From a virus (taxonomy: Duplodnaviria > Heunggongvirae > Uroviricota > Caudoviricetes): a stretch of DNA of 40,825 bases. The notes under the pieces were generated by a model, which saw only the letters and a program-made list of their open reading frames with translations, ran no database searches and was not told the origin of the DNA. The position numbers and the translations under genes were made by a program. Shown here in pieces: positions 8,976-40,825 of the stretch. Position 1 is the stretch's first letter, and each line of letters starts with the position of its first letter. Location of the stretch: IMG/VR virus record IMGVR_UViG_2917398303_000002, positions 1 through 40,825 of that record; one strand, written 5' to 3'.

Positions 8976-10369
8976 TAATCACCCCATAGTGAAGAAAAGT
9001 TACTGCTGGCTGCAGGCTGTGATACCTGTGCAGGTTGAGATTGCTGCCGCTGAGATTTACCAACATTAACGTTATATTGTTGGTTGTAATTGTTGGTGTA
9101 TTCCTGAATCTCACGAATCGACTGCTGCATAGCCTCCGGGCTTGAATAGTCAACCTGCGGCATCCCCTGAAAATACATCTTCGCTTCTGCAACGGTGTTG
9201 ATACCACTGGCCCCCATGTCCCTTGCTGCCGCCACACCCTGATTCTGCATTCTGCCCTGAATACGTTGTGCTGAGTTATATAACTGGCGCTGCTCTTTTC
9301 CTGTTAATCGGCTGCGAACATCAGCACCAATTGCCGGGCTACCTGCACCGCCTGTTATTCCTGTCATGAAATCGAGAGCAGAAGCATCTGCATTTGCGAT
9401 CGCGTCGATATCCTTCTTCATGGCATAGTTTTGTGCTGATGCAGACGATGTTGCAGGCGCAGCGATTGAACTGGCAGGGACGCGAACCATATTCCCATCG
9501 TTGTCGATGCCTTCGTAGAACGCATTAGCCCCAGCGCCATGAAGCTTCCCGCCTACAGTTACAGTTCTGCCATCTGATAACTGAACTGTACGCTCATCAT
9601 TCCCAGCGGTTCCTCTTGTTGACGCTCGCTGCATTGCCAAATCCTGCCCGCGTCGCGCAGTAGAAGCAGATAAATCCTGACCGCGCATCGTGATGTTCTG
9701 ACCTCGTGCTGTTAGCGCCTCGCCAGCCTGATTGCTGCGGATTGTCTCTGCAAGTTTTCCGCGATCAATCTCACGCCCAACGATTCTGTCTTGCGCCTGA
9801 AAATATTGTTCTGGACCAAGTGCAGCCATTCCAAGGTGATCAACAAACTCTGTGAAACCTTGTGGATTTTGCTGATACATTTTCGCCACATCCAGAGGGT
9901 CTACTCCGGCACGAGTAAGCTCAGATGAGTTGTTCTGCAACCATGACATCATGGCTTCTGGAGATGAAGCTGCGAGTCTGGCACTTGCTGCCAGTGTACC
10001 GACAGTGGAACGCTGGTCTTCATCGACAAATTTCATGCCGTTTCTTACAGCGTCAAACTGCTCAGGATACTGTGATGCCAGCTTTCGCATTGCATCGCGG
10101 TCACCAGATGTATATGCATCAGCATAAGCCTGCTGAAACTCTTGCTGCCGCTTCTGCTGATCCATCTGCTTATACATATCCATGACAGATGAAATACCCT
10201 GCAAAGCCTGCAAGCCAACGTTATTACGTCCTGAACGCTCCATCTCATTATTCTGTCGAATGTATGCAAGCGTGGCGTCTGCATCACTTGCTCTTGGAGC
10301 GTTGGAGTTCATGCCGCCTAACCCGGCAAGAAGCGCGCCTGAATTACCAGCCTGTTGCCATGTAGCCAA
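8975..10369 (-). CDS. Ejection protein, P22 gp20-like
   Basis: Synteny (between gp7-like and gp16-like), size 464 aa, Q/A-rich. Confidence 0.7.
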
Positions 10370-10381
10370 GAGACACCTCCA

Positions 10382-11035
10382 TTAAAAAAGTGAACCAAGA
10401 AGACCGACGCCAGCACCAATTGCTGTCCCCCAACCAGGCATGATTGCAGTACCTGCAGCTGCACCTGCCGCCGCTCCACCCAGGGCACTCTGAAATCCTG
10501 ATGGTTTATTCGCATTAGCCGCAGATGCTGCCGCCTGCTGTTGATACAATTGGCTGACGTTGTTAGCGTAGTTCTGTCCGGCATTTGCCTGACCTGTAAG
10601 AGCACCAAGGCCGATATTTGCCAGATTGTTGTAGTTGTTCATCTGACCTGACAGCCAGTTTTGACCGAGTGTAGGTGCGATTGCTGCCAACTGGTTTCCG
10701 GTTGCCGTAGAGCCTAATCCACCCGTTGCCTCTGCTGCTGCCAGGCTCTGGTAACGCGCCTGACCTGCTAGGTCTTTGTACTGCTGGGAGTTGTAATACT
10801 GGTTAAGTGCCTGCCCTTGCCCCTGAAGTGAGGAAAGATTCTGCAACTGTGATACATACTGCTGAGCGAGTGGCGTGAACGGTGCAAGGTTTTGCATGTT
10901 CGTTTGCCACATTTCGCGCTGTAGATCGATACCTTTTTCCGTTGCGCGTGCACTCGCTTTTGCTCCACTATCACTGCCACCTTTGCAGTAAACAGCTTTG
11001 GTGAGGTACTTATTAGCAATCTGAAAAATTAACAT
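10382..11035 (-). CDS. Ejection protein, P22 gp7-like
   Basis: Synteny after gp14; 217 aa, Gln/Ala/Gly-rich with C-terminal hydrophobic segment. Confidence 0.65.
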   Translation of the reverse strand: MLIFQIANKYLTKAVYCKGGSDSGAKASARATEKGIDLQREMWQTNMQNLAPFTPLAQQYVSQLQNLSSLQGQGQALNQYYNSQQYKDLAGQARYQSLAAAEATGGLGSTATGNQLAAIAPTLGQNWLSGQMNNYNNLANIGLGALTGQANAGQNYANNVSQLYQQQAAASAANANKPSGFQSALGGAAAGAAAGTAIMPGWGTAIGAGVGLLGSLF

Positions 11036-11489
11036 CCGTTAGTTCCTCATATTTTGAGCGCGGTAACTGATAAATCGTGATACCTACAGGATTTCCATTA
11101 CTGGTGTATGCATCATCAAGGTGACCAACACGGGTAGCACCGAGCAAACGGATGATTGCCCGTCCGTATTTTGTGGTATCAGGAACCATGGTGATGCTGT
11201 TGAGGAATGGTGAGTTTTCGAGAAGCCATTTGCAGAATAATCGGTGCCCTTGTAGTGCATATTCTCCACGGAATCCGGGGTCGTACACCGCATGGCATTC
11301 CACAACGCTATGCCAGAAGTTACGCACTTCATGAACACCAGCCAGCACTAATCCTTCGTAGATACCGAGATATACAGCATCAGGCTTGATGTAGTATTTA
11401 TCTCCACTGTCTACGATATTTCCCGTGTTTTCTGGATTGTTGAGGAATTCTGCAAGCTTCACCGGATTATCGATGAGCTTTATTTCCAT
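11013..11489 (-). CDS. Head assembly/ejection-associated protein, P22 gp14-like
   Basis: Synteny between gp26 and gp7; 158 aa. Confidence 0.6.
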   Translation of the reverse strand: MEIKLIDNPVKLAEFLNNPENTGNIVDSGDKYYIKPDAVYLGIYEGLVLAGVHEVRNFWHSVVECHAVYDPGFRGEYALQGHRLFCKWLLENSPFLNSITMVPDTTKYGRAIIRLLGATRVGHLDDAYTSNGNPVGITIYQLPRSKYEELTDVNFSDC

Positions 11490-12190
11490 TAGTTTATTAA
11501 ACCATGTGTTCGCAGTGCGTTTTCAAGGGCAAGTATTCGTTGTCTAGCCTGAATCAAACCAGTGGCTATATCATCTACTTCTGCCCGAACGTAGGTTGTT
11601 GAAAGAGGATACGGTTGATTTGCAGTAAACGCGCTTGTTAGCGGGGTTCCTGTGCCGGCAGTCCAACCGTTTTGCCTTGCACCGACCACCTTTACCCCTC
11701 CAACTGAGTATGATGTAGTCACATTGAGAGGCGATGATAGTGATTGTTGACTTACTTCAGTCTTGGAAACGTAGTCCAAACTGAGATTACCAACATCGTT
11801 TTCAACAGATGTCACTCTTCCATCAAGAGATGAAATTTCAGATTGAATGTTGAGAACTTCACCTTCAACTGTGGTTATTCTCACACCTAAATCAGCAATT
11901 GCCGCTGTATTTCCGGTAATTCTTACTTCATGACCATCAACTTCAATGCGCAGTTGTTTAATTCGTAGTTCATGGTCTGCAAGTTCATCGTCCTGCTGTT
12001 CATTCCTGACCTGCGCTTCATAAGCTCCCTGACCTGCTTCGTTAGCTTTGTTTGCTACGTTACCAACGTCTGTACCCTGTGCGATAACATACAGCAGGTA
12101 TGACTGAGAGAAGATGTCGCGCGGAAGAATTGACGTGTCGAGCCGCGTCGCCTGCACAATAACAGGGGTGTTGAGATTTAAATCAGCCAT
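11489..12190 (-). CDS. Tail needle (cell-puncturing) protein, P22 gp26-like
   Basis: 233 aa; N-terminus [43 protein letters not shown] and C-terminus ...[13 protein letters not shown] match P22 gp26 as recalled; central coiled-coil heptads. Confidence 0.85.
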
Positions 12191-13608
12191 TACTCAATCC
12201 TTACCTGGCAACCAGACAAAGTGACAGGTGACTTCGTGATAACGCGCAATTTGAAGCCGACATTTTTCCTGATGCGCCCGACTCGCTTCCACAAAACGCG
12301 TTTGTCGTAAACGAACGGTTCATTCTGCTCAATCATCTGCTCACGACCGTAATTGATGCCGTCAGTGGTTGCAGAGAGGAACAGGCGGTCAGCGTACTGA
12401 GCGACACCCGTCGATGATTCAACTTCCAGATCGAAGCATCTGCCGTTATCCGCTTTGAACAACGGAGTAAACAACAGGTGTTCCTGTTGCTTGTCGTACT
12501 GGCTGCTGATATCGAACTGCAATTTGCCGATAACCGATTCCAGCTTATCTCCGCACGTTATCTGATTGCCTTCGTAAATGAAGTCGATAGCGCGGTACAC
12601 ATCGTCATACAGGCCTGTTTTCAGCACACACCATTGCGGACCATTGGCGCTTGAAGATGCGTCGTACACGAGAACATGGCGCGGAAGGTGGATAATCAGC
12701 AACTCATGAGCATCAAAGCGCAACGATTCCATCACGCCATCAGCCAGTTCATCAGCAGTGTAGGAGCGGAGGATTTTCTCAATGCTCGCGCTGGCGATTG
12801 GTGATACCTGACCGGAACCGATGATGTATACAGACGGCGCACCTGTTGCCGGATTGCTGATGAACGCATAAGAATCAGCGAATGGCGTTTTGCAGTAAGT
12901 CCCGGCAATGCCTTTCTGCACCATCAGTGATGGCTGTGCGACATACAAAGCGGCACCAACGGTGTTTGCCCCCGTCAGGGAGAAATATTCAATCGTCGAT
13001 GAACCAAAGCAGACGATGAAGTCTCGCCATGTTCCGATGCCGATGATGCCGTCAGGCTGAGACTCAGCACGATATTGTGCGCTGTATCGGTCAGGATGTG
13101 ATTCGTCTTCAAGGTCAGTGATAAACCATGAATCAGTGCCGTCTTTTGACCACGCATAACGCCCACGTAAGCGTGTAATGTCGCGGACTGAGCCTAACTC
13201 ATACTGAGTGAATCCGCTATCAGTAGGCCAGTTTGAGACGGTTTTAACCGTGCCATCATAGCGATACTCTACCAGTTGACCATTAACGCCTACCGCCTGT
13301 GATGTCCGACCATGAGCCATTGATACGCGACCACTTCCGGCAACATTACCGACTTCACTTTCTCCTTTGTACAGCTTGCCACCACACACACGATAAACAG
13401 CATTCTGCGCCATGTTGTATTCAACGCCGCGAGATACACCGTTCACATCAGAACGTTTGGCAATGCCCGGGAATGAGCGAAGATATCCGCTGCTGTTCAG
13501 GATTTCTTTGGGTGTAGCCAGCATATTCACTGGCAGATAGTCGATATAGTCGGCGTTTCGGAAGTCTTTGCCGACACCTTTCATAAGCGGAAGTTGCTGA
13601 ATCGGCAT
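12190..13608 (-). CDS. Tail hub/head completion protein, P22 gp10-like
   Basis: 472 aa, synteny between gp4 and gp26. Confidence 0.8.
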
Positions 13609-14086
13609 TTATTCGCTCCCGTTATCGCAAGGTTCCTTCCGGTGGAAGTAATTCCAACCGTTCCACTTCGCCAACTGGTTACCACTACCAACAGGCATAC
13701 GGTTTGGATAACCGGACTTACATTTTGCGGCTTTTGCTCTGTCCATTGCAGACAGTTTGACGAGTCGCTCTTTCCCGTATCTGGCAGTGGTTATAAGTTT
13801 TGCAGACGCTTCCAGCGCATAATCCGGAGCAATGCGGCAGGCAAGGTTGAAAATGACGGCATTGATAGCGTTATTTGATAAACCGTGTTCATCGCCAGGA
13901 TCTGGAGCGACATCTGCATCAGCGAAAATGTAGCCAACGTTGATACCTGGTGACGCATTACCGCCAAGCCATTCAGCCATCATCATTTCAAGGTCGTTGA
14001 CGCCGTCTTCCATAGACTGCGGTTCGACATCGGTTAACGTGGCATTTGATGCCACACCGAGCTTACGTAATGCCGCAAGGACTAAA

Positions 14087-14109
<23 letters not shown>
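13609..14109 (-). CDS. Tail adaptor/head completion protein, P22 gp4-like; start placed at internal Met ([10 protein letters not shown]), giving 166 aa
   Basis: [28 protein letters not shown]...[27 protein letters not shown] resembles P22 gp4 as recalled; upstream in-frame extension is only the (SQ)n translation of the hexamer repeat. Confidence 0.75.
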
Positions 14110-14365
<256 letters not shown>

Positions 14366-14378
14366 GCTTGTCTACAGA

Positions 14379-14401
14379 TAAAAAAGGGAGCCGAAGCTCC
14401 C
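14379..14401 (-). terminator. Rho-independent terminator immediately after the coat gene
   Basis: On the minus strand GGGAGC-TTCG-GCTCCC hairpin followed by TTTTTTAT. Confidence 0.6.
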
Positions 14402-14409
14402 TCTGGTTA

Positions 14410-15705
14410 TCACGCGGTCTGGTTAGGCAGACCAACACCAATTGCCTCTGGTCGTACAGCACATGCTGAATACCACACAGCAATACGGCACTTACCAGAC
14501 AGAGTGTTGATATCACCCTGCGTTGCGAAGATGCCGTTAACACCAATACCAGGAATGCTGAAGGAAGACGTTTTCATGCCAGCAAACAGTTCATGGGTTA
14601 CCGGGATCGGCTGAGACAGCAGGCGGATTAAGTCATCAGCCCAGAACACGTTAGCGGTGGTTGTTGCCACGTTCAGAACGTTCACCGGAGTGGTATCAGC
14701 AAGAGAGGTGTTTACATTAGCGTAAGCCTTCTCTTCTTTTGTCAGTGACGCGTCATCCAGTGCAATCGGCTTCGGCGTGATTTCGATGTGAGTACCATCG
14801 ATCACACAGGTGATTGAGAAAGTCGCATCATCAGTCAGCACGTTCTTCGCCATCTGAGACAGGAATTTCACACCAGTGAAGCTGATTTTGTCGCCGCGCT
14901 TAAATCCGGTGGTGGAGGATACAGTCACCGTTGCAACACGGTTGTCGACGTTCTCTTTGTTACCATCGGTATCAAGGGTGTATGCCTGCGGCTTAAACTT
15001 CTGCGCACCAGACACAGTTACGCCAGTAGCGGTTGACTTGGTAACTGCCGGAAGTTTCGGTGAGCGAAGAATTTCATCAAAGCCAGCAATCTGACGCTGA
15101 ATAGTACCGTTGCGATACGCTTCTTCAGGAACGCGCCCAAAGATGTCACCATCTACCAGGTTGCGGCCTGCTTTGCGGTAATCGTCAGGGTTCAGGAAGT
15201 AACTGATGCCCATATCGCGGTTTAGCTCACGGGAGAACATCAGGCGCTCTGCATCAGACACAAAATCCCAGCCAGACAGGCCAGTAGATGGACCAATTGC
15301 GCGGGTATCGTGGACAACAAGCGAGCCCATTTCAGTTGCCTGTTTGGCAATCGCTGACTCAATGTTATTCGCCAGTTTTTTGGCGGATGCCTGGATGCGG
15401 CGACGGTAAGAACGCTCATCACGCAGGTCATCTGCACGAAGCTCGAAGAAATCGTTATCCGGATCGCCCATGTTGCATTTCACGGAGAGTTCCAGAATCC
15501 CGGTTGCGTTGCCAGTTAAATCCCAGCCAGTCTGGGTTGGCGCTTCCTGCTCAACAGGCATCCACACGGTGTTGCTTGAACGCTGCATGGATTCTGCCGG
15601 AGGGGTGTATTTTGTCACTTTGGACGCCATTGGCGTCAGGTTCTGGACGGTTTCGATGATTTCATCCAGAGCATACGTGACCAGTTGACCTTCATTTAAT
15701 GCCAT
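14410..15705 (-). CDS. Major capsid (coat) protein, P22 gp5-like
   Basis: 431 aa, follows scaffold gene with 1-bp overlap; synteny terminase-portal-scaffold-coat. Confidence 0.85.
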
Positions 15706-16616
15706 TATCGAATTCCTTTATTCAGTTGCGCCTTGAGCTTGCGGTACGTCTCTACATCCCCTTTGTTTGCTGCCGCTTCCATCTGCTTTTCAATCGCAGA
15801 GATATTTGCAACAACAGCGTGTCCCTGAATGGGTTCATCAGGTAGCGGGGCTTCTGAAACAGGTTTGGCTCGAGGCTTGAGAGTTAAACGTTCTGACAGT
15901 CGAGTGAGTTCAATCAGCGCGGATTGCCCGTCCATCGCCAGCAACTGGCGTGTTTTCTCAGGATTAGCACCAAGGTGATACATGAGAGCAGCGGATTTCT
16001 CCGGGAAGAGACGCATGATATCGGCACCGACTGCTGGCGGCACCAGTTGCATGAATGCATCCTCTTTCTCCTGATAGTCAGGGATGTTGAGCTTTTCCGC
16101 TGCGTCGTAGTGCTTACGGGCTGCCTCGACGTATTGCGCTGATTGCTGGGTGAACTCCTGAGTTTTGCGACCCTGCTCGGCGACAGCCTGGCTTCGTGCG
16201 TCCATAGCCTTGATCTGCCATTCACTGTTTGCCTGCTGGAAGGCAGCCAGTGCGCGGCTCTGGTCATAGTCGTACTTAGCCAGTGCATCTTCGGAAAGAT
16301 AATCGTTAGGGTCTGGTTGTTTTGGTAACTCAGGGTTCACCCGCAGGTGCTCCGGCAACTCTCCACGCTTAACCGCTTCCATCTGCTGCTCAAGCTCACG
16401 CTGGCGTTTGCGTTCGATGCGGCGACGGGCAAATTCAGCATTAGTTGCCGGGTCTTGTTTTGGTTTCTCATCGTCTTTCAGGACAATCTCGAAGCCTTCT
16501 TCCTGACCTGCGTTGTCGTTGGCATTATCGACAACTAAGCCATCAGCAGATGCCGCTGCATGATTGCCGGGCAGGGTTAATTCTTCAGAAGCCTGAATGT
16601 CGGTGGTTTGGTCCAT
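15705..16616 (-). CDS. Scaffolding protein, P22 gp8-like
   Basis: 303 aa, highly charged alpha-helical composition, between portal and coat. Confidence 0.8.
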
Positions 16617-16629
16617 GATTAACTCTCTC

Positions 16630-18795
16630 TTATTGAGGTGTCTCGGCTACTCCGCCGGAGGGGATTTGAACTTGACGCATAAGATTCGCGAAATCTAGGC
16701 GTTGTGAATGAGTCTGGTCTGCATCTTTAAGAAGCAGCTCAGCGTTAGCACGAGCATCTTTGCTGCGCTGTTGCTGGAATTGACCTACGAGCTTGAGGTA
16801 CTCACGCAGTTCTGCCTGCTTGTCGAGGTCCATATTGTTTAAGATTTCTGCAATCTTCGCGGCGTTGAGTTGGTTTTGGGCTTCAACCTTGGCGGCTTCA
16901 ACCTGAATCTGCGCCTGTTGGTTCTCTGCCTTGAGCAATTCAGCCTGACCTTGCAGAAGGATACCCTGCGCCTGAATTTGCTCTGCTGATGGCTGCTGCG
17001 GCTGTTGTTGTGCCTGCTGTACCATCTCCATCTCTTCAGGTGTTTCTGGTTTCTTCAGCCCCATCATCACCAGTTGCTTGTTCGCGTACTCTCGCATCAT
17101 CTCGACGCCTTTACCGTCAAGCAGCGTGAAGTATTGCAGCATCAGCATCTGGAACTCTGGAGTACCTTGCGGAACCTTGGTTAGTAACTCCTGAATCTCT
17201 GCGCGGTTCTGTTCCTTCATGCTCTGGAAGGATGGCCCAACGTCCGTATAGCACTCATAGCGACCACGAATGTCGTTGAGTGTGACCACATTGCCGGACT
17301 GGTAATCGACAACTTGCGCATAGAGTTGAACGTCTTTCTCGCTTCCATCTTCAAGTGTCAGCGTTACATGACGAGGAACGTCATAAATATCGTTGACCAT
17401 TGAGGCATAAATCTCGCCATCACGTCGCATTGCGGTAGCCAGATTATCCTGGAACACGTATGTCTCAAGGTCTGCCCGCATGTTCAGTTGATTGACGGTA
17501 TCGAAAGCGACCTGAGAGTTTGCTGCCTGCGCATCCACACCAAGACTAGCCACCTCTTTCACTGCGTTGGTGGCAGCCTCAAGCATGTAAGCGTTGGCTT
17601 GCGGCACTTCAGGGTTTTCCATGTAGGAGATTGGACCAATCGGCAGGTCGTTACCGTTTTCATCGGTCTTGTTCTGCAAATAGTACGGATAGTCATCATT
17701 TCCACCGTACATGTATTCGTAGCCTTCGATTTGCTCAGGGAAGAAGGTCGGTTTCTTCTTCGGTGAACGAGCAACAATATCGGCGTTGAATGACATGATC
17801 ATGTTACGAAGGCGTTGACCGTCTTTCGTCAGCCTTACTACACCTTCGTAGCACTCCTTGTCACCAGCGAATGACCATTCGCCATACACTGGAACGATTG
17901 GGATATGCTCTCCAGCTATCTTCTCGCGGTCTTTCAGTATCTGCGTGCAGGTGATGATCGACTTATACACACGCCGACGCTTGACCTTACGCTCTGCTAC
18001 CTTAATGAATCCACGATTAGCCAGGTCGTCAATGACGTCTTTGATATCCTGCTGGTAATAGCTGACCGGCTCACCTGTCAGCGGGTCGCGGTAGATGAAG
18101 ACCTTCTCTTTCTTCTCTTCGACCTCGTAATACTCAGCGACGTAGACGACATCATTCGATACCCACGGAAACAGCCATGTATCGTTCGGATTCTGGAAAG
18201 ATGGCAAGGTGTCCGGATCAATACCGTAATCCTCTGCGAACTCTTTCCAGCCATTGCGTGACAAGGCGTTAATCACCGTGCAGTGCTTAGCGTCGCTCTT
18301 ATCCATCTGCTTGCTGTTTGCGTCCCATATGACGTGTGAGCAGGCTTCATGGATTGGCAGGCGTCGAATTACCTGATTGTTGCTTGTTGGGTCGTTGTCT
18401 TCGTACTGTGTGACCAGACGCCATGCACCAACGCCGGACTCTATCTGCTCACGAACGCCAACGTTAACGGCAATTTTTGCCGTGTTATGGCGCATATCAG
18501 TACGATACATCCCCATCAACACATCGGCAGCATCAGGATTAGCGCCGTCTTTTGGTCGAAAGAGAACGTCGATAGGATTCCGGCGCATCTCTGCGACCAG
18601 CTTCCTGACCACCGGGCGGACTACATCGAATTGTCCGCGATATTGCAGGGTCGTGTAGTTTGATAGCCAGTCATCCCATTGCGACACTCGGCTAAAATAC
18701 AGGTCATTTGTCGCCTCGGTTCTGGCTTCATCGCTCGCCATCCAGTCCGCGTCAAACTTGCACAGAATGGAATTGAGTCTGTTTTCGTCGGCCAT
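16630..18795 (-). CDS. Portal protein, P22 gp1-like
   Basis: 721 aa; N-terminus [18 protein letters not shown]...[12 protein letters not shown] and C-terminal Q-rich barrel region match P22 portal as recalled. Confidence 0.9.
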
Positions 18796-20295
18796 TTAAG
18801 TTCTCCGTGCGATGGGCCTGATTGGGGCTGGTATCTTTTTCTCTTTTGGTTTTTTGATGTCGCGCATCATTTTGGCGAAGCGGCGCATCATGTATGCATA
18901 GCGAACGGCGGAGAGCACGTCGTCGTTAAGCTTGACGATTTTCCCGTTTTCATCACGGTGATAGAGGCGGAACTCTTCAAAAAATGGCTCACAGGTGTTG
19001 AATACTTTGAAGCGACCATCGAGCATCATGTCGCGCAATTCAGTGATGCCAGGCTCAACAGCATTACCGTCATCAGGCCATGTCGCATGCTCCTGCAACA
19101 TCATAAAACCAGCGTCCGCGTACTGCCCTTTAAGCTGCTCACCGCCGCCCTTCTCATGCTGGTTTCCGTCATGAGGCCATGCGGTTGGCACTTTATGCGC
19201 CCATGACTTAACGGCTCCCCAAGCCTGAACGGCTGTCTTTTCTTTCGCCTTCCACACGCGTGAAAGGTAGATTATGTCTGCATCCTTATCCCACCAAAGC
19301 TGAACCTGCGCCTGTGGGTGATCCCATCCGAAATCCATCCCGTTAATTACGTAGAAGTGATCAGGACACTCGAACGGCTGACACTTAATCGTCTCTTCCG
19401 GTATCTGGAAGATTCGACCGCTACCCATCGTGGGAATACCGCGAGCACGCGCCTCTCTCTCATGCTCGGGATAGGATGCGATGATTTGCTCTTTCTGCTC
19501 GTCGGTGTAGTGCTCAGCGTCGTAGATGGTCATGTTGACCACTTTCTGCGACTTGCTGGGATTCTTCAGGAACTTGGTAACAACGTCAGACATCCCCATC
19601 AGCGGGGTAAACGTCAGAATTGAGAATTGACCGTATTTGTTGGTACGGGTAAGGCCTTCGCCATAAATGCTGTATGGTGGTTCTTCGTCAAACCAGACGC
19701 CATGGATTGTGTCACCCTGCCAGCGGGCGCGGCCTTGCGAGTATGGCTTGAAGTAGCAGATTGAAATGCCATCTTCAACCCCATCAGCCGTGTGATGCTT
19801 AACCAGAAGATGATCAACAAGGTTCGGAAAGAAAGGAGACTTCTTCCAGCTAATGATGTCTTCTTTCGGTATGGAACCGTAGCCAGGTTCACCATTCTCT
19901 TCGATACGACCGCACAGGATGCGTTGAGTCGTTTTGGTTACAGTCTCGTTTGTCTCGCCACCAATCCAGAAGACAACAGGCTCATAGAAACGCTTACCTT
20001 TCCACTCACCGCCATATTTACCATCAGCAGGATAGCCTTTTGTGCCCGGATAACGCCCGGTAAGGTGAAACGCGACTTCAGCAGCACCAGTAAATGACTT
20101 ACCAAGCTGGTTACCAGCCATAAAACATCGCTCTGGATAGTCATGCCCGGCGTCGATGAACTCACGCTGTTTGCTGTATGGCGTAAATTCATATAGCAGG
20201 TGTGTGTTCCGGTAGTTCTCTTCTTCTTCGAGTAGCTCGAGCAATTCGATTTGCTCTTCGTCGCTCAGGTTATCAAGAATCGCGTCCAGTTCCAC
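18796..20295 (-). CDS. Terminase large subunit, P22 gp2-like
   Basis: 499 aa; Walker A-like [13 protein letters not shown]; directly after small terminase. Confidence 0.9.
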
Positions 20296-23658: not shown

Positions 23659-23734
23659 TGGTGCTGGTTAACGGACTTGAACCGCTACCCATTCGCTTAC
23701 AAGGCGACTGCTCTACCATTGGAGCTAAACCAGT
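23659..23734 (-). tRNA. tRNA-like gene, predicted anticodon UGU (Thr)
   Basis: Hand-folded cloverleaf: D stem GCTC/GAGC, anticodon loop CTTGTAA, T arm AGCGG-TTCAAGT-CCGTT, 3' ...AACCAGC-A-CCA; position 1-72 mismatch. Confidence 0.55.
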
Positions 23735-23739
23735 ATATT

Positions 23740-23814
23740 TGGCGGGACAGCGTGGACTCGAACCACGATAAGAAGGTTAACAGCCTTCCGTAATGACCTT
23801 TATACGACTGACCC
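23740..23814 (-). tRNA. tRNA-like gene, predicted anticodon GUU (Asn)
   Basis: Hand-folded cloverleaf: anticodon stem GAAGG/CCTTC with loop CTGTTAA, T arm CGTGG-TTCGAGT-CCACG, 3' CTGTCCC-G-CCA; one acceptor mismatch, short D stem. Confidence 0.55.
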
Positions 23815-37487: not shown

Positions 37488-37688
37488 ATGCAACACGAAC
37501 TACAACCTGATTCACTGGTTGATTTGAAACTCATCATGGCCGATACTGGCTTCGGTAAAACCTTCATCTATGACCGGATTAAGTCCGGAGACCTGCCTAA
37601 AGCCAAAGTTATCCACGGGCGAGCAAGATGGTTATATCGTGACCATTGTGAATTCAAAAATAAGCTCTTAAGCCGCGCCAATGGGTAA
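37488..37688 (+). CDS. torI: TorI-like excisionase / recombination directionality factor (AlpA-Xis winged-helix fold)
   Basis: 66 aa MQHELQPDSLVDLKLIMADTGFGKTFIYDRIKSGDLPKAKVIHGRARWLYRDHCEF...; matches E. coli TorI as recalled; terminal position next to att core. Confidence 0.8.
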   Translation: MQHELQPDSLVDLKLIMADTGFGKTFIYDRIKSGDLPKAKVIHGRARWLYRDHCEFKNKLLSRANG

Positions 37689-37761: not shown

Positions 37762-37776
37762 CTGCAGGGGACACCA
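37762..37776 (+). other. Candidate att core (right prophage junction, shared with downstream island): 3'-terminal 15 nt of tRNA-Arg (argW)
   Basis: CTGCAGGGGACACCA equals the T-stem 3' strand/acceptor 3' strand/CCA end of argW as recalled. Confidence 0.5.
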
Positions 37777-37940
37777 TCCCGCCGTACACCAACGTCTACC
37801 ATTGTCTATAAATCCCATGTAACCATATAGAAATAAAGAGATTTTATTCTCATGACGTCCATTACCGTCTATTGAAATCAAGTAAATCTATGGGGCATAA
37901 TTGGGGGCATTGCTGGTTCGATTGTATATGTGCCCCCAAT

Positions 37941-39227
37941 ATGTCCAGAAATACCCTCAACAAATTAACAGACCGTCAGTGCAAAACAGCTAAGCCACGA
38001 GACAAAACTTATAAATTGTCTGATGGTGGTGGTCTTTATCTTGAAGTATCCCAGACCGGGTCGAAGTATTGGCGTATGAAGTATCGCCGTCCATCAGATA
38101 AGAAAGAAGACAGACTTGCTTTTGGTGTATATCCAACCATTAGCTTACAAGATGCCAGAGAGAAACGAGACAACGCCAGAAAGTTGTTAGTCAAGGGGAT
38201 AGATCCCAAAGCAGAGCAAAGAGCAGCCAAAGCAGAAGAAAAAGGTGCATTCACTTTTGAGACAATAGGACGTCAATGGGTTGAAAGCCACCAGATGTGG
38301 AACGAAGCCCACCGAAAACGCGTGCTTAGAAGCCTTGAAATGTATATTTTTCCTCACATTGGCAACTCGGATATTCGCAAACTGGAGGCGATGACAATTT
38401 TACCTTTGTTTAAGAAGGTAGATGACGCAGGGAAACACGATACAGCTAACCGACTTAAACAACGAGTAAAGGACATCATACATAGTGCCCGTCTGAGCGG
38501 CATTAAGACAGAAATTATCACGAATGATCTCGATGTCCGGTTAATGCAATATGAAACTAAGCATCATGCCGCATTACATCCCAGAGACCTACCAGACTTT
38601 TTCACTCGATTGGGAAGTTTTAGAGGTAATCCTCTTACCCGCCTTGCCATTGAGCTAACCATGTTGACCTTTGTTCGTTCAAGCGAGTTAAGGTTTGCCC
38701 GTTGGAAAGAGTTTGACCTTGATCGGGCTGAGTGGATTATCCCTAAAAAAAGAGAGCCTATCGATGGTGTGAGGTTTTCCACCCGTGGCACAAAGACGGG
38801 AAAAGACGAACATATCGTGCTTCTTAGCCGTCAGGCTGTTTCTATTGTAAAGCAGTTGAGAGAACTAAGCGGAAGCTACGATGTTGTGTTTCCGAATGAA
38901 AGAAACACCAAAGGCGTGATGAGTGAAAACACAGTAAACAAGGCATTACGTTTAATGGGATATAACACGCAAGAGGACGTAACTGGACATGGATTCCGTG
39001 CCACAGCTTGTAGTTCCTTGATGGAGTCCGGTTTGTGGCAGGAAGACGCAGTAGAGCGCCAGATGAGCCACAAAGAATATAAAGACGTTAAAAGAGCCTA
39101 CAAGCACAAGGCTGATTACTTAGAAGAGCGCAAACTAATGCTTCAATGGTGGGCAGATTATCTGGACGCCAATCGAGAAATACATATAAGCCCTTACGAG
39201 TTCGGAAGGAGAACACGCCGTGACTAA
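37941..39227 (+). CDS. Tyrosine integrase, P4 family (start placed at MSRNTLNKLTDRQ..., upstream in-frame Met codons less likely)
   Basis: LTDRQCKTAKPRDKTYKLSDGGGLYLEV...YWRMKY arm-binding motif; C-terminal HGFRAT...LMLQWWADYLD catalytic region. Confidence 0.85.
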   Translation: MSRNTLNKLTDRQCKTAKPRDKTYKLSDGGGLYLEVSQTGSKYWRMKYRRPSDKKEDRLAFGVYPTISLQDAREKRDNARKLLVKGIDPKAEQRAAKAEEKGAFTFETIGRQWVESHQMWNEAHRKRVLRSLEMYIFPHIGNSDIRKLEAMTILPLFKKVDDAGKHDTANRLKQRVKDIIHSARLSGIKTEIITNDLDVRLMQYETKHHAALHPRDLPDFFTRLGSFRGNPLTRLAIELTMLTFVRSSELRFARWKEFDLDRAEWIIPKKREPIDGVRFSTRGTKTGKDEHIVLLSRQAVSIVKQLRELSGSYDVVFPNERNTKGVMSENTVNKALRLMGYNTQEDVTGHGFRATACSSLMESGLWQEDAVERQMSHKEYKDVKRAYKHKADYLEERKLMLQWWADYLDANREIHISPYEFGRRTRRD

Positions 39228-39960
39228 GATGACAGGACTAGATGCGTTTTATAACGAGTCAGAAGATAAAATCTGGTTTGGTAATCTGATCAGCGAACTT
39301 GCAAGACTAAACAATGAAAATGAAAGAGTGATAGCTGCCGCTATCTTAAGTAACTACAGATTGAGCAAGACTAAACCAGATACTTTAGGGGGGCTGGGCT
39401 TTTATCAGTTCGATTGGGTATCTGGTTTTACGACTAATGAAGACTTTGAAAAGCAGTGTGTGGAGTTTTTAGGTCTTCTGGCTATGGGGCATGAATACAG
39501 GGAGAGCCCGATACCGGGGGAAGAAGGGACTTTCAACGTTAGGAAAGGAGAAGACTTTTTATATCACGATGATGAGGATGATTGGTATGGGTTTTACGAT
39601 TCGTTTTATTTCAAGCGGTCCGAGCTTGTGAGCTTCTTCCCAGAACTGGAAGATCACAACATTGATGAACCGATAGCAGAGGAAACAGAAAGTGGGTCGC
39701 TCCCCAGTGACTGGCGCGGCAAAAACACCGCCTGGAAAATGATTGCTGGGCTGGCGATTGCTTTATATGAATCCAGCGAGGACGTTAGAAAGAATGGAAA
39801 GCTCAACCAGTCCGCGGTGTGCGAGAAAGCAGCAAACAACATCGCAAAGTACAGTGAAGAATACAATGATGCTGGCATGACCATGGATAATCTAAGAACG
39901 CTTCTAAAAAAGACTTTGCAGCGGCACGCACCCAATTTTTTGGGAAAGATAACCAAGTAA
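39220..39960 (+). CDS. Hypothetical acidic protein (246 aa), translationally coupled to integrase (8-bp overlap)
   Basis: ORF; no recognisable motif by eye. Confidence 0.5.
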   Translation: MTKMTGLDAFYNESEDKIWFGNLISELARLNNENERVIAAAILSNYRLSKTKPDTLGGLGFYQFDWVSGFTTNEDFEKQCVEFLGLLAMGHEYRESPIPGEEGTFNVRKGEDFLYHDDEDDWYGFYDSFYFKRSELVSFFPELEDHNIDEPIAEETESGSLPSDWRGKNTAWKMIAGLAIALYESSEDVRKNGKLNQSAVCEKAANNIAKYSEEYNDAGMTMDNLRTLLKKTLQRHAPNFLGKITK

Positions 39961-39969
39961 AATAATCGA

Positions 39970-40018
39970 TGTTCCCAAATTGGCTGGAGAGACGAAAACA
40001 AACGCCCAATTTGGGACA
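39970..40018. promoter_or_regulatory. Inverted repeat upstream of alpA (candidate operator)
   Basis: TCCCAAATTGG ... CCAATTTGGGA, 11-bp arms separated by about 23 bp. Confidence 0.4.
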
Positions 40019-40116
40019 ATTCCTTTCCCGAAAACTTTTTCTCCAAATTCACAGAAAACTTAAAAAAACAATGATTTACTATCTCTCATAGTCAAGCAAC
40101 GTATTACGAGGTAGAT

Positions 40117-40308
40117 ATGAAAAAGTCGCTGATTCGGCTATCTGAGGTTTTGAAACGCACTGGCTATAGCAAGGCGTGGGTATATGCTCTGATGAGCCGA
40201 GGACAATTCCCTCAATCAGTCAAGATTGGTGCTCGCGCAATAGCTTTTATTGAAAGCGAGATCGATGACTGGATCGATCAACGTATAGCCGAATCGCGTA
40301 GTAACTAA
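40117..40308 (+). CDS. alpA: AlpA-family transcriptional regulator / excisionase-like protein
   Basis: 63 aa; ...LIRLSEVLKRTGYSKAWVYALMSRGQFPQSVKIGARAIAFIESEIDDWI... is the AlpA HTH signature. Confidence 0.8.
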   Translation: MKKSLIRLSEVLKRTGYSKAWVYALMSRGQFPQSVKIGARAIAFIESEIDDWIDQRIAESRSN

Positions 40309-40356
40309 AGAACAGAAACAAACCGGATACAAACAATACGTTATTAGGTATTAAGA

Positions 40357-40548
40357 ATGCAGTTGACCCCCACCAATCAAAAGCTGAACGTAACCCATGT
40401 TGATTTTGAGACCTTCGCGGAACTGATTAGATCAGATCCACAAAAGGTAAGCACCAGCACCAGGGTTTATGATGTGAAATCCACCAACGGTGGAAAAGCT
40501 ATCGGCATTGTCTCTGGCGATGATTACTTAGTAATCGATCTGATTTAA
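40357..40548 (+). CDS. Hypothetical protein (63 aa)
   Basis: ORF between two AlpA-like genes. Confidence 0.4.
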   Translation: MQLTPTNQKLNVTHVDFETFAELIRSDPQKVSTSTRVYDVKSTNGGKAIGIVSGDDYLVIDLI

Positions 40549-40630
40549 TCGCACAAAAATTGTAGAGTGATTTGGGAAGACAGGAAGTCTTCCTCCATAT
40601 TGCATTTTGGTACAACAGTAAGGGAATAAA

Positions 40631-40825
40631 ATGATTAATTATCTGACCGCTAAAGACGCAGCAGAATATCTTGGTGTCTGTCTATCACGCTTCTATCAGT
40701 TAAAGCGATATATCCCCAGCTTTCCCCCCTATGTAAATCAGACCATCAATGGACGCAAGCGCAGAGTGTGGCTTGCCTCCAGCCTTGATCAATTTGCCGA
40801 CAGATTTCTGGGGGGACGAAAATGA
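40631..40825 (+). CDS. Second AlpA/Xis-like HTH protein (stop codon is the last 3 nt of window)
   Basis: 64 aa; ...LTAKDAAEYLGVCLSRFYQLKR...RRVWLASSLDQF... resembles AlpA/excisionase winged helix. Confidence 0.6.
   Translation: MINYLTAKDAAEYLGVCLSRFYQLKRYIPSFPPYVNQTINGRKRRVWLASSLDQFADRFLGGRK

What the first reader, a model, noticed from the sequence alone, without database searches (positions are those of the whole stretch)
39220..40548. Uncharacterised cargo genes coupled to the P4-family integrase of the downstream island
A 246-aa acidic protein overlaps the integrase stop by 8 bp, implying co-translation, and a 63-aa ORF sits between two AlpA-like regulators. Neither matches any family I can recognise by eye. 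Int-proximal genes in P4/CP4-57/PICI-like islands often encode element-specific regulators, phage-interference or anti-phage functions. The island sits next to a resident inducible prophage, where helper exploitation or interference would be expected.
Basis: inference. Interest (0 to 1): 0.55.

Follow-up and report, generated by a model that had tools for sequence, protein, structure and literature searches.

The report
Candidate regulator between integrase and alpA
The 246-aa gene that overlaps the island's integrase is probably not cargo: it looks like an uncharacterised two-domain DNA-binding regulator that travels as a swappable cassette with its own repeat sites in the promoter of alpA, the switch gene that wakes such islands, while the 63-aa gene remains an orphan of unknown function.

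Summary
ORF246 (39220-39960, GTG start, pI 4.7) overlaps the P4-type int stop by 8 nt. ORF63 (40357-40548) lies between AlpA and a weaker HTH_17-like protein. Neither ORF matches Pfam, NCBIfam, PHROGs, PADLOC, PDB sequences or any known fold.

The "cargo" reading does not hold for ORF246. In every related locus examined, from at least ten Enterobacterales genera, a homologue sits directly upstream of alpA, after int wherever int is present.

ORF246 has an acidic N-domain, an acidic disordered linker and a basic C-terminal helical domain (pI 9.7). Downstream lie 4-7 helically phased repeats, and the last one replaces the -35 of the alpA promoter. The repeat sequence changes with the C-domain type. 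It does not change with Int (99% identical), AlpA (100%), HTH64, ORF128 or Rep. Between E. coli variants, one block of about 400 bp (39661-40051) is about 51% identical inside a backbone that is at least 89% identical.

Best reading (about 0.55): ORF246 is an element-specific regulator of PalpA. Whether it activates or represses is unresolved. The closest precedent is iolg of the Vibrio PICMI satellites.

ORF63 is restricted to this island lineage and its function is unknown. The real variable cargo slot, which holds a SIR2/ThsA-like gene in one strain, lies beyond the window.

The parts
37762..37776 (+). att core (3' end of argW, CTGCAGGGGACACCA): right junction of the P22-like prophage and left junction of the island
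   Evidence: This is the only copy in the window. The same 15-mer flanks the island in L001 (18001 and 25952) and in L002 (18363 and 29417), which gives island sizes of about 8 and 11 kb.
37872..37901 (+). Promoter-like site for int (TTGAAA-18-CATAAT, 10 of 12 matches)
   Evidence: Consensus scan only. No functional evidence.
37941..39227 (+). P4-family tyrosine integrase (428 aa)
   Evidence: Pfam Arm-DNA-bind_3 4.7e-29, Phage_int_M 5.1e-19, Phage_integrase 9.3e-17. The RefSeq annotation agrees.
39220..39654 (+). ORF246 N-terminal domain (aa 1-145): acidic alpha/beta domain, conserved within the argW island lineage
39655..39714 (+). ORF246 acidic disordered linker (aa 146-165)
   Evidence: pLDDT 45 for the block aa 151-160, and below 50 for aa 153-159. 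pI 4.05, with 6 D/E and no K/R. The left boundary of the variable cassette falls here.
39715..39960 (+). ORF246 C-terminal basic helical domain (aa 166-246 plus stop): predicted DNA-binding and specificity domain
   Evidence: pI 9.67. Helices at 168-185, 197-211 and 222-245, with pLDDT about 90-95. The motif GK(D/E)TA..IAG.A.AL...NKSA is shared with about 30 proteins that have other N-domains. The domain type co-varies with the downstream repeats.
39661..40051 (+). Swappable cassette: linker, C-domain and repeats up to the -35 of PalpA
   Evidence: In L001 against L025, 100-nt windows are at least 89% identical over 4.5 kb, except for about 51-53% in this block. At least three cassette types sit on one backbone in E. 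coli: 47, 166 and 7 genomes. The conserved N-domain DNA is found in 226 of 5426 genomes.
39972..39982 (+). Repeat 1 (TTCCCAAATTG)
   Evidence: It is 100% conserved between the window and L031 while the flanking spacer has diverged.
40005..40017 (-). Repeat 2, inverted orientation (GTCCCAAATTGGG on the minus strand)
   Evidence: It forms an 11-nt perfect inverted repeat with repeat 1 (I5). It is conserved in L031.
40025..40034 (+). Repeat 3 (TTCCCGAAAA)
   Evidence: The equivalent is TTCCCAAAAA in L002 and L031.
40040..40053 (+). Promoter-proximal repeat overlapping the predicted -35 (TCTCCAAATTCACA; -35 is TTCACA at 40048-40053)
   Evidence: It is equivalent to ACTTCCACA and ATTACCACA in other cassette types, which lie at a fixed 68-69 nt before the alpA ATG.
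40048..40075 (+). Predicted PalpA core promoter (TTCACA-16-AATGAT)
   Evidence: Consensus scan, 9 of 12 matches. The region downstream of the -35 is conserved among cassette variants.
40117..40308 (+). alpA (63 aa), AlpA-family regulator/excisionase
   Evidence: Pfam Phage_AlpA 3.6e-18. It is 100% identical in the window, L024, L025 and L031 even though their repeats differ.
40357..40548 (+). ORF63: orphan small acidic protein, function unknown
   Evidence: No family or PDB hit. Only 25 clusters were found, in E. coli, Klebsiella and Raoultella, always in this island lineage. An 82-aa homologue at 23% identity fills the same slot in Klebsiella and Erwinia islands. The frame is preserved through an STS-repeat length change. 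Counts are 7-9 nonsynonymous and 4-6 synonymous codon differences per pair for five of six pairs.
40574..40594 (+). Hairpin GGAAGAC-AGGAA-GTCTTCC between ORF63 and the next gene
   Evidence: dG -14.8 kcal/mol with its flanks. The loop is conserved and the stem changes in a compensatory way in L002 and in Klebsiella. It is not part of the cassette.
40631..40825 (+). 64-aa HTH_17/excisionase-like protein (second small DNA-binding protein)
   Evidence: HTH_17 at 22.7 bits, below the cut-off; phrog_7338 2.8e-5. 62-63 of 64 residues are identical across cassette variants.

Best explanation
ORF246 is a core regulatory gene of an argW-integrated int-alpA island of about 8-11 kb. It is made together with the integrase: the two genes overlap by 8 nt, a Shine-Dalgarno sequence lies upstream, and no separate promoter was predicted.

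I infer that its basic C-terminal helical domain binds a phased array of short repeats immediately downstream of its own stop codon. The promoter-proximal repeat takes the place of the -35 of the alpA promoter. The acidic N-terminal domain and acidic linker would be the signal-receiving or partner-binding part. ORF246 would then decide whether alpA, the island's activator/excisionase gene, is transcribed, which makes it the element's induction switch.

What is shown and what is inferred. Shown: the synteny, the two-domain architecture, the charge asymmetry, the enrichment and phasing of the repeats, and the co-variation of the cassette with its repeats. Inferred: DNA binding itself and its effect on transcription.

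The direction is unresolved. I lean slightly towards signal-dependent activation, because the repeats lie upstream of and over a poor -35, none covers the -10, and the positional analogue iolg is required for excision in PICMI115. Repression, or a roadblock against read-through from int-ORF246, is nearly as likely, because no terminator was predicted between ORF246 and alpA.

ORF63 is a fast-evolving gene restricted to this lineage in the operon downstream of alpA. I cannot assign it a function.
For: (1) Synteny. In all 17 loci parsed, the ORF246 homologue is followed directly by alpA. Further loci with called genes show the same order. The organisms that could be named span at least ten Enterobacterales genera. 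This holds even for proteins that share only the C-domain (P0046, P0047, P0058).

(2) Architecture. The AF2 model built from 36 sequences has pLDDT 87.6: two domains joined by a disordered linker. N-domain pI 4.35, linker pI 4.05, C-domain pI 9.67.

(3) Repeats. In 13 type-A loci, TTC[CT]A occurs 69 times on the + strand in 2.49 kb of intergenic DNA, against 1.73 per kb elsewhere (p=2e-57). Spacings are mostly 20-23, 30-33 and 40-43 bp. The last copy lies 68-69 nt before the alpA ATG in 11 of the 13 loci.

(4) Specificity co-variation.
- Type-A C-domain pairs with ACTTCCA(A/C)A.
- Type-B C-domain pairs with ACCCTnAGGGT in L020 and with related variants (ACCCTGAGGGT, ACCCTCATAGT, ACCATGATAGT) in L027. 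The two loci have different AlpA proteins.
- The window and Klebsiella type pairs with TTCCCAAA.
- L024/L025 pair with ATTAC(C/T)A(A/C)A, at spacings of 40-42, 22 and 22 bp, with the last copy 69 nt before the ATG.

(5) Exclusion of other binders. Between the window type and L025, Int is 99.1% identical (98 of the first 100 residues), AlpA 100%, HTH64 63/64, ORF128 124/128 and Rep 339/350. The C-domain is about 30% identical and the repeats differ.

(6) Phylogenetic footprint. Between the window and L031 the repeats are conserved (11/11, 11/11 and 9/10 positions) while the spacer between repeats 1 and 2 has diverged.

(7) In the window, the stricter motif TTCCC[AG]AA[AT] occurs only at 39938-40578.

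(8) Precedent. PICMI115 iolg overlaps int, lies before alpA, is expressed constitutively and is needed for excision (PMC10803314).

Against: The C-domain coding sequence and the repeats are physically contiguous. A single recombination block would make them co-vary whether or not they interact.

The window's own array is less regular than the type-A arrays: three direct copies plus one inverted, with spacings of 53 and 15 bp.

Islands of the same general kind work without such a gene. L023 has nothing annotated between int and alpA. In EcCICFT073 the gene after alpA is called ORF3, which suggests the same (PMC6092414).

Homology between ORF246 and PICMI115 IOLG was not tested, and those authors favour a role in the excision complex.
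Confidence: 0.55

Rival explanations
1. ORF246 is an accessory subunit of the excision/integration machinery, as proposed for IOLG. It would bind Int and/or AlpA and be needed to assemble the excisive complex. The repeats in front of alpA would belong to some other factor.
For: The 8-nt overlap with int suggests coupled, roughly stoichiometric synthesis. PICMI115 delta-iolg abolishes excision, and its authors propose an Int-IOLG-AlpA excision complex (PMC10803314). The N-domain is conserved together with Int in the argW lineage.
Against: The repeats lie about 2.2 kb from the att core (37762 against 39972-40053), too far to act as arm-type sites. No copy of the repeats was found near attL in the window. 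This model does not explain why a basic domain and the adjacent promoter repeats are exchanged as one cassette while Int stays 99% identical. In more distant loci the gene is separated from int by about 130-220 bp.
Confidence: 0.2
2. The co-variation is only linkage. The region 39661-40051 is a recombination hot spot, and ORF246 has a function unrelated to alpA control. The repeats would be bound by a host or helper factor.
For: The variable block is a single contiguous stretch. No DNA-binding fold was detected.
Against: Each cassette type keeps the same architecture, with phased copies and a last copy at a fixed distance from the alpA ATG, but uses a different motif. This pairing is seen in the distantly related loci examined from several genera, where simple linkage within one lineage cannot explain it. 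A host or helper factor would not need different motifs in islands of the same species. The repeats are footprinted against diverged spacers.
Confidence: 0.12
3. ORF246 and/or ORF63 are accessory cargo. They would be anti-phage or helper-interference effectors.
For: [quoted passage not shown] ORF63 evolves fast, with roughly twice as many nonsynonymous as synonymous codon differences in most pairs. It is also restricted to one lineage. Both features are compatible with an arms-race gene.
Against: No PADLOC hit and no match in the phage or plasmid collections. The slot and the C-domain are conserved across Enterobacterales, which is core-like behaviour and not cargo-like. The island has a separate, clearly variable cargo slot.
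Confidence: 0.08

Closest known systems
IOLG/ICG (integrase-overlapping or integrase-contiguous gene) of Vibrio PICMI satellites (Barcia-Cruz et al. 2024, PMC10803314)
   Same: It lies between int and alpA on the same strand and overlaps the int stop by a few nucleotides (1, 4 or 13 nt there, 8 nt here). It has no recognisable domains. It is expressed with int and is part of the core of the element, not its cargo.
   Different: The hosts differ (Enterobacterales against Vibrionaceae). Sequence relationship is untested, and the PICMI genes already fall into 13 unrelated families. IOLG has genetic evidence (needed for excision) but no proposed DNA target. Here there is a predicted DNA target, the PalpA repeats, but no genetics.
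SaPI/Gram-positive PICI master repressor Stl
   Same: It is an element-specific regulator encoded next to int. It controls the promoter of the gene that starts the island's cycle. It is highly diversified between islands. Works-like analogy only.
   Different: Stl is transcribed divergently from its target, has a recognisable HTH and is a proven repressor released by helper-phage proteins. ORF246 is co-directional with alpA, has no recognisable HTH, and may activate instead of repress.
Immunity cassettes of lambdoid phages (repressor plus operators exchanged as a unit)
   Same: A DNA-binding specificity determinant and its adjacent cis sites are replaced together inside an otherwise near-identical backbone. 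At least three cassette types sit on one E. coli backbone. The lambdoid comparison rests on my own knowledge.
   Different: Only the C-terminal domain and the repeats are exchanged, not a whole repressor gene. The N-domain stays constant.
OmpR/PhoB-type activation, where direct-repeat boxes replace the -35
   Same: Direct repeats phased by whole helical turns, with the promoter-proximal copy in place of a poor -35. This is a resemblance in promoter anatomy recalled from my own knowledge, not a tested relationship.
   Different: There is no receiver domain and no winged-helix OmpR fold, and no sequence or fold match.
DUF6387 proteins (PF19924)
   Same: They occupy the same int-alpA slot in other E. 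coli islands (L021, L022), with their own palindrome upstream of alpA.
   Different: They are unrelated in sequence: hhalign probability is 2% against the C-domain profile. Their function is also unknown.

Membership tests
IOLG/ICG class (PICMI satellites) | Gene located between int and alpA, on the same strand | tested here: met
   and all related loci.
IOLG/ICG class (PICMI satellites) | Start overlaps the int stop by a few nucleotides | tested here: met
   8-nt overlap (39220-39227), conserved in L001, L024-L026 and L030. Not met in distant relatives such as L003, L005, L008 and L010, which have gaps of about 130-160 bp and would count as 'contiguous' genes.
IOLG/ICG class (PICMI satellites) | Required for helper-induced excision | not testable with these tools
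   Genetic phenotype reported for PICMI115 only.
IOLG/ICG class (PICMI satellites) | Sequence similarity to a PICMI IOLG family | not tested
The hits in the representative search that could be traced to an organism were all Enterobacterales.
Gram-negative PICI (Fillol-Salom 2018; SatelliteFinder model) | P4-type int followed by co-directional alpA | tested here: met
Gram-negative PICI (Fillol-Salom 2018; SatelliteFinder model) | Primase-replicase (pri-rep) module | tested here: not met
   The island's Rep is an HUH rolling-circle type (REP_ORF2-G2P, 28.5 bits), which PGAP calls 'rolling circle replication-associated protein'. Distant relatives of ORF246 do sit in islands that encode a primase.
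Gram-negative PICI (Fillol-Salom 2018; SatelliteFinder model) | Packaging or capsid-redirection genes (terS, capsid morphogenesis, rpp) | tested here: not met
   None is annotated or found by Pfam in the full island in L001, L002 or L031.
Gram-negative PICI (Fillol-Salom 2018; SatelliteFinder model) | Induction and transfer by a helper phage | not testable with these tools
   Experiment needed.
SaPI Stl-type master repressor | Recognisable HTH DNA-binding domain | tested here: not met
SaPI Stl-type master repressor | Divergent transcription from the regulated gene, with operators between the two | tested here: not met
   ORF246 and alpA are co-directional. Candidate operators do lie between them.
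AlpA/Xis/TorI excisionase family (PF05930, HTH_17) | Profile match for ORF246 or ORF63 | tested here: not met
Known anti-phage defence proteins (PADLOC 2.0) | Profile match | tested here: not met
Iteron-binding plasmid initiators (RepA/RepE, two winged helices) | Fold match, and repeats associated with the replication module | tested here: not met
PIME integrative mobilizable elements (bioRxiv 10.64898/2026.01.12.698999) | repA plus trbJ/trbL conjugation genes | tested here: not met
   None is annotated in the complete islands.

The most novel reading that the evidence does not exclude
ORF246 and its relatives are the missing helper-sensing gatekeepers of alpA in enterobacterial int-alpA satellites. 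The constant or variable N-domain would read a helper (phage or plasmid) signal. The exchangeable C-domain and repeat cassette would give each island private control of its own alpA promoter. That would make it a functional counterpart of SaPI Stl, built on previously undescribed folds.
Probability: 0.3. Interest if true: 0.8.

Novelty: new variant of a known kind. Interest (0 to 1): 0.6.

Why it matters
Two papers leave the same question open. For Gram-negative PICIs, it is unclear whether a global repressor exists, and the phage-encoded inducer of alpA is unidentified (PMC6092414). For PICMIs, the authors ask how the helper activates the early regulon and what IOLG does (PMC10803314).

A widespread protein family with no annotation sits exactly between int and alpA and carries its own matched repeats in the alpA promoter. 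That is a concrete, testable candidate for the missing link. The natural cassette variants on a near-identical backbone amount to ready-made specificity-swap experiments.

The result also corrects the working assumption that int-proximal genes of such islands are cargo.

Tried and rejected
- **Profile searches.** ORF246 and ORF63 gave nothing usable in Pfam, PHROGs, NCBIfam or PADLOC. Ten distant homologues also gave nothing usable.
- **PDB sequence profiles.** Nothing.
- **tblastn against phages and plasmids.** No match.
- **The search for related loci with the full alignment.** It failed, so I used a C-domain-only alignment instead.
- **Is the island EcCIMP1, the satellite of the P22-like phage Kapi1?** No. 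EcCIMP1 is a 20-kb element at tRNA-Thr.
- **Is it a PIME?** No. It has no trb genes and no repA.
- **Are the repeats AlpA, Int or HTH64 sites?** Rejected, because those proteins are 98-100% identical in islands whose repeats differ.
- **Are the repeats a replication origin?** Rejected, because they follow ORF246 regardless of replication-module type.
- **Is the TTCCCAAAT copy at 40570-40578 a second operator?** Probably not. It stays the same when the cassette changes, and it flanks a conserved hairpin.
- **Terminator between ORF246 and alpA.** None was predicted on the + strand. The inverted repeat folds no better than 17 of 200 shuffles (z=-1.5).
- **Rfam.** Nothing.
Full report
**Context.** The window is E. 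coli chromosome at the argW (tRNA-Arg) locus.
- Bases 1 to about 37776 are a complete P22-like prophage. It runs from intS (1-1158) to torI (37488-37688), carries a P22-type tailspike, and resembles phages APC_JM3.2 and IME10.
- The prophage ends at the argW 3' repeat CTGCAGGGGACACCA (37762-37776), the only copy in the window.
- The first 3 kb of a second element follow. In complete genomes the same 15-mer flanks that element on both sides, giving about 8 kb in strain A16, where it sits alone next to argW, and about 11 kb in GPEC1292.
- Its gene order is int, ORF246, alpA, ORF63, a 64-aa HTH protein, ORF128, an HUH rolling-circle Rep (REP_ORF2-G2P, 28.5 bits), a variable slot, and a serine recombinase.
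- The variable slot holds a SIR2/ThsA-like protein (PADLOC 3.9e-12), a GTPase with a partner protein, or two large unknown proteins, depending on the strain. That slot, not the int-proximal region, is the cargo position.

**Observation.**
- The int stop codon TAA is at 39225-39227. ORF246 starts at GTG 39220 with AAGGAG 8 nt upstream, and an in-frame ATG lies at 39229.
- RefSeq annotates the same 8-nt overlap. It recurs in E. coli, Klebsiella and Erwinia relatives.
- The protein is acidic, pI 4.72.
- ORF63 (40357-40548) lies between a solid AlpA (3.6e-18) and a weaker HTH_17-like protein (22.7 bits, below the cut-off).
- Neither ORF hits Pfam, PHROGs, NCBIfam or PADLOC.

**ORF246 family and structure.**
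- A word-indexed search of 5.8 billion proteins found only 11 clusters, from E. coli, Klebsiella and Erwinia.
- Their alignment shows a conserved N-terminal part (aa 1-143) and a much more variable C-terminal part.
- A full HMMER profile search of 1.84 billion representatives found 42 proteins. A few share the N-domain. About 30 share only the C-terminal roughly 80 residues, with the motif F.GK(D/E)TAL..IAG.A.ALE...RGGK.NKSA, fused to unrelated N-termini.
- With 36 sequences AlphaFold2 gave a confident model (pLDDT 87.6). It has an alpha/beta N-domain (aa 1-145), a disordered linker (pLDDT about 45 around aa 151-160) and a helical C-domain.
- The charge is split: N-domain pI 4.35, linker pI 4.05 with no basic residue, C-domain pI 9.67.

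**Synteny.**
- I recovered genomic context for distant homologues, for nine further genomes and for close variants.
- In all 17 loci parsed, the gene is immediately followed by alpA. It is preceded by a P4-type integrase wherever one is present.
- The organisms that could be named include Escherichia, Klebsiella, Erwinia, Pantoea, Buttiauxella, Mangrovibacter, Leclercia, Pseudocitrobacter, Citrobacter, Lonsdalea, Serratia, Rahnella, Dickeya and Providencia.
- Most of these islands carry Bro/AntA genes and a primase, which is typical PICI-like content. The window's island instead has an HUH Rep.
- So the gene goes with the int-alpA zone and not with a particular replication or cargo module. That argues against 'cargo'.

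**The repeats.**
- The intergenic DNA between this gene and alpA holds 4-7 short repeats.
- In 13 type-A loci, TTC[CT]A occurs 69 times on the coding strand in 2.49 kb, with 5 on the other strand, against 1.73 per kb in the rest of those loci (p=2e-57).
- Spacings are mostly 20-23, 30-33 and 40-43 bp, which is whole helical turns.
- The last copy (ACTTCCACA) lies 68-69 nt before the alpA ATG in 11 of the 13 loci. It sits where a -35 would be, upstream of TGCTGAAATA.
- The window has TTCCCAAATTG (39972), the same motif inverted (40005-40017), TTCCCGAAAA (40025), and TCTCCAAATTCACA (40040). The TTCACA within the last is the predicted -35, in TTCACA-16-AATGAT.
- Across the whole 40.8-kb window, the stricter motif TTCCC[AG]AA[AT] occurs only between 39938 and 40578.

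**Which protein goes with the repeats.** The repeat sequence follows the C-domain type.
- Type A pairs with ACTTCCA(A/C)A.
- Type B (coiled coil plus a different C-domain, as in P0038) pairs with ACCCTnAGGGT in L020 and with related variants in L027, although the two loci have different AlpA proteins. The L020 AlpA has the same YSKAWIYRL segment as type-A islands.
- A DUF6387 protein in the same slot comes with a different palindrome.
- An island with nothing in the slot has none of these repeats.

The sharpest test is within E. coli.
- L001, which is identical to the window across the cassette, and L025 are at least 89% identical in every 100-nt window over 4.5 kb.
- The exception is one block at about 51-53% identity. 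It corresponds to window 39661-40051 and covers the linker, the C-domain and the repeats up to the -35.
- Across that pair Int is 99.1% identical (98 of the first 100 residues, the arm-binding part), AlpA 100%, HTH64 63/64, ORF128 124/128 and Rep 339/350. The C-domain is about 30% identical.
- The repeats become ATTAC(C/T)A(A/C)A with the same architecture: spacings of 40-42, 22 and 22 bp, and the last copy 69 nt before the ATG.
- A third cassette (L031) has a C-domain whose first helix is close to the window's. It keeps the window's repeats exactly, while the spacer between repeats 1 and 2 has diverged, which is a phylogenetic footprint.
- In 5426 complete E. coli genomes the conserved N-domain DNA occurs in 226. 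The three cassettes occur in 47, 166 and 7 genomes.

**Interpretation.**
- Among the island's proteins, only the basic C-domain of ORF246 changes together with the repeats. I therefore infer that it binds them and controls the alpA promoter.
- This is inference. The domain and its sites are adjacent, so linkage alone would also make them co-vary.
- Against pure linkage: the pairing recurs in the distantly related loci examined from several genera, each cassette keeps the same geometry with a different motif, and the repeats are conserved against diverged spacers.

**Direction of regulation.** It is open.
- For activation: the sites lie upstream of and over a weak -35 and none covers the -10. 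In Vibrio PICMI115 the positional analogue iolg overlaps int by 4 nt, is constitutive and is required for excision, as alpA is (PMC10803314).
- For repression or a roadblock: ORF246 is made with int in the quiescent state. No + strand terminator is predicted between it and alpA. Something must keep alpA silent until a helper arrives.
- The acidic N-domain and linker could auto-inhibit the basic domain or receive the helper signal. That is speculation.

**Literature.**
- For Gram-negative PICIs, AlpA is an auto-activating inducer. No repressor is known and the phage signal is unidentified (PMC6092414).
- Reviews of these elements describe the int-alpA region simply as an 'integration zone', or treat genes there as accessory (PMC10111431; PMC10085698).
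- My searches found no paper that assigns a function to this family.
- The island is neither EcCIMP1 nor a PIME. It fails two PICI criteria, because it has no primase and no packaging genes.

**ORF63.**
- Searches with the single sequence and with a profile found only 25 clusters, all in this island lineage (E. coli, Klebsiella, Raoultella). They include an 82-aa version at 23% identity in the same slot.
- The frame survives an STS-repeat length polymorphism (61, 63 or 65 aa).
- Codon differences run at about 7-9 nonsynonymous to 4-6 synonymous in five of six pairs, which suggests weak constraint or fast evolution.
- There is no family, PDB or defence match. I cannot give it a function.
- It probably belongs to the alpA-led operon, so a role in the induced phase is the most that can be said.

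**Verdict.** The 'cargo / anti-phage' reading is not supported for ORF246. The 'element-specific regulator' reading is supported by comparative evidence only. I rate interest at 0.6. The finding offers a concrete candidate, with natural specificity variants, for the unsolved step of how alpA is switched on in these islands, but nothing has been tested at the bench.

Noticed in passing
window 40574-40594 (also L002, L024, L025, L026, L030): A hairpin GGAAGAC-AGGAA-GTCTTCC lies between ORF63 and the 64-aa HTH gene. The AGGAA loop is conserved while the stem changes in a compensatory way: GGGAGAC/GTCTCCC in L002, and a quite different 10-bp stem GTGATTGAGC/GCTCAATCAC in Klebsiella. It could be an RNA element or, given the island's HUH Rep, a nick-site or origin hairpin.
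   Followed up: partly
window 37885-37945: A strong hairpin (TTGGGGGCA...TGCCCCCAA, dG -23.8 kcal/mol, z=-2.8) ends right at the int start codon (37941). It lies downstream of a promoter-like site at 37872-37901, and its loop contains a tRNA T-loop-like GGTTCGATT. It may control int translation or be an old att remnant.
   Followed up: partly
L001 22600-25200; L002 23600-26800; L031 14700-18600 (island beyond the window): The slot between rep and the serine recombinase varies between strains. It holds a SIR2/ThsA-like protein (PADLOC 3.9e-12), a GTPase-domain protein with a 152-aa partner, or unknown proteins of 821 and 330 aa. It looks like a defence hotspot with untested candidates.
   Followed up: partly
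L001 21516-22568 and 25184-25810: The island replicates with an HUH rolling-circle Rep (REP_ORF2-G2P, with a weak relaxase-nuclease match) and not a primase. It also carries a resolvase-type serine recombinase at its far end. This is unusual for int-alpA satellites. One paper mentions a primase-less, resolvase-bearing group at tRNA-Phe (PMC10111431).
   Followed up: partly
L021 1928-2809 and L022; the intergenic region upstream of alpA in L021 (2810-3006): In other E. coli islands a DUF6387 protein fills the same int-alpA slot. It has its own palindrome (TCCGCTTTGAATAC / GTATTTCAAAGCGGA) before alpA, so the slot may generally hold regulators with private sites.
   Followed up: partly
window 40449-40466; alignment A4: ORF63 contains an AGCACC (Ser-Thr) repeat whose copy number differs between strains, giving proteins of 61, 63 or 65 aa.
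   Followed up: no
L032 (E. coli 2013C-3342) 8779-19802: Here a lambdoid prophage abuts the island without a torI gene. A torI copy lies after the island's recombinase, so the tandem order at argW differs from the window.
   Followed up: no
L003 8799-8988, L008 2347-2545, L014 4238-4416: In several type-A islands one repeat sits in the loop of a 7-9-bp inverted repeat. In the window the first two repeats themselves form an 11-bp inverted repeat.
   Followed up: no
window 23659-23814: The P22-like prophage carries tRNA-Thr(TGT) and tRNA-Asn(GTT) genes on the minus strand.
   Followed up: no
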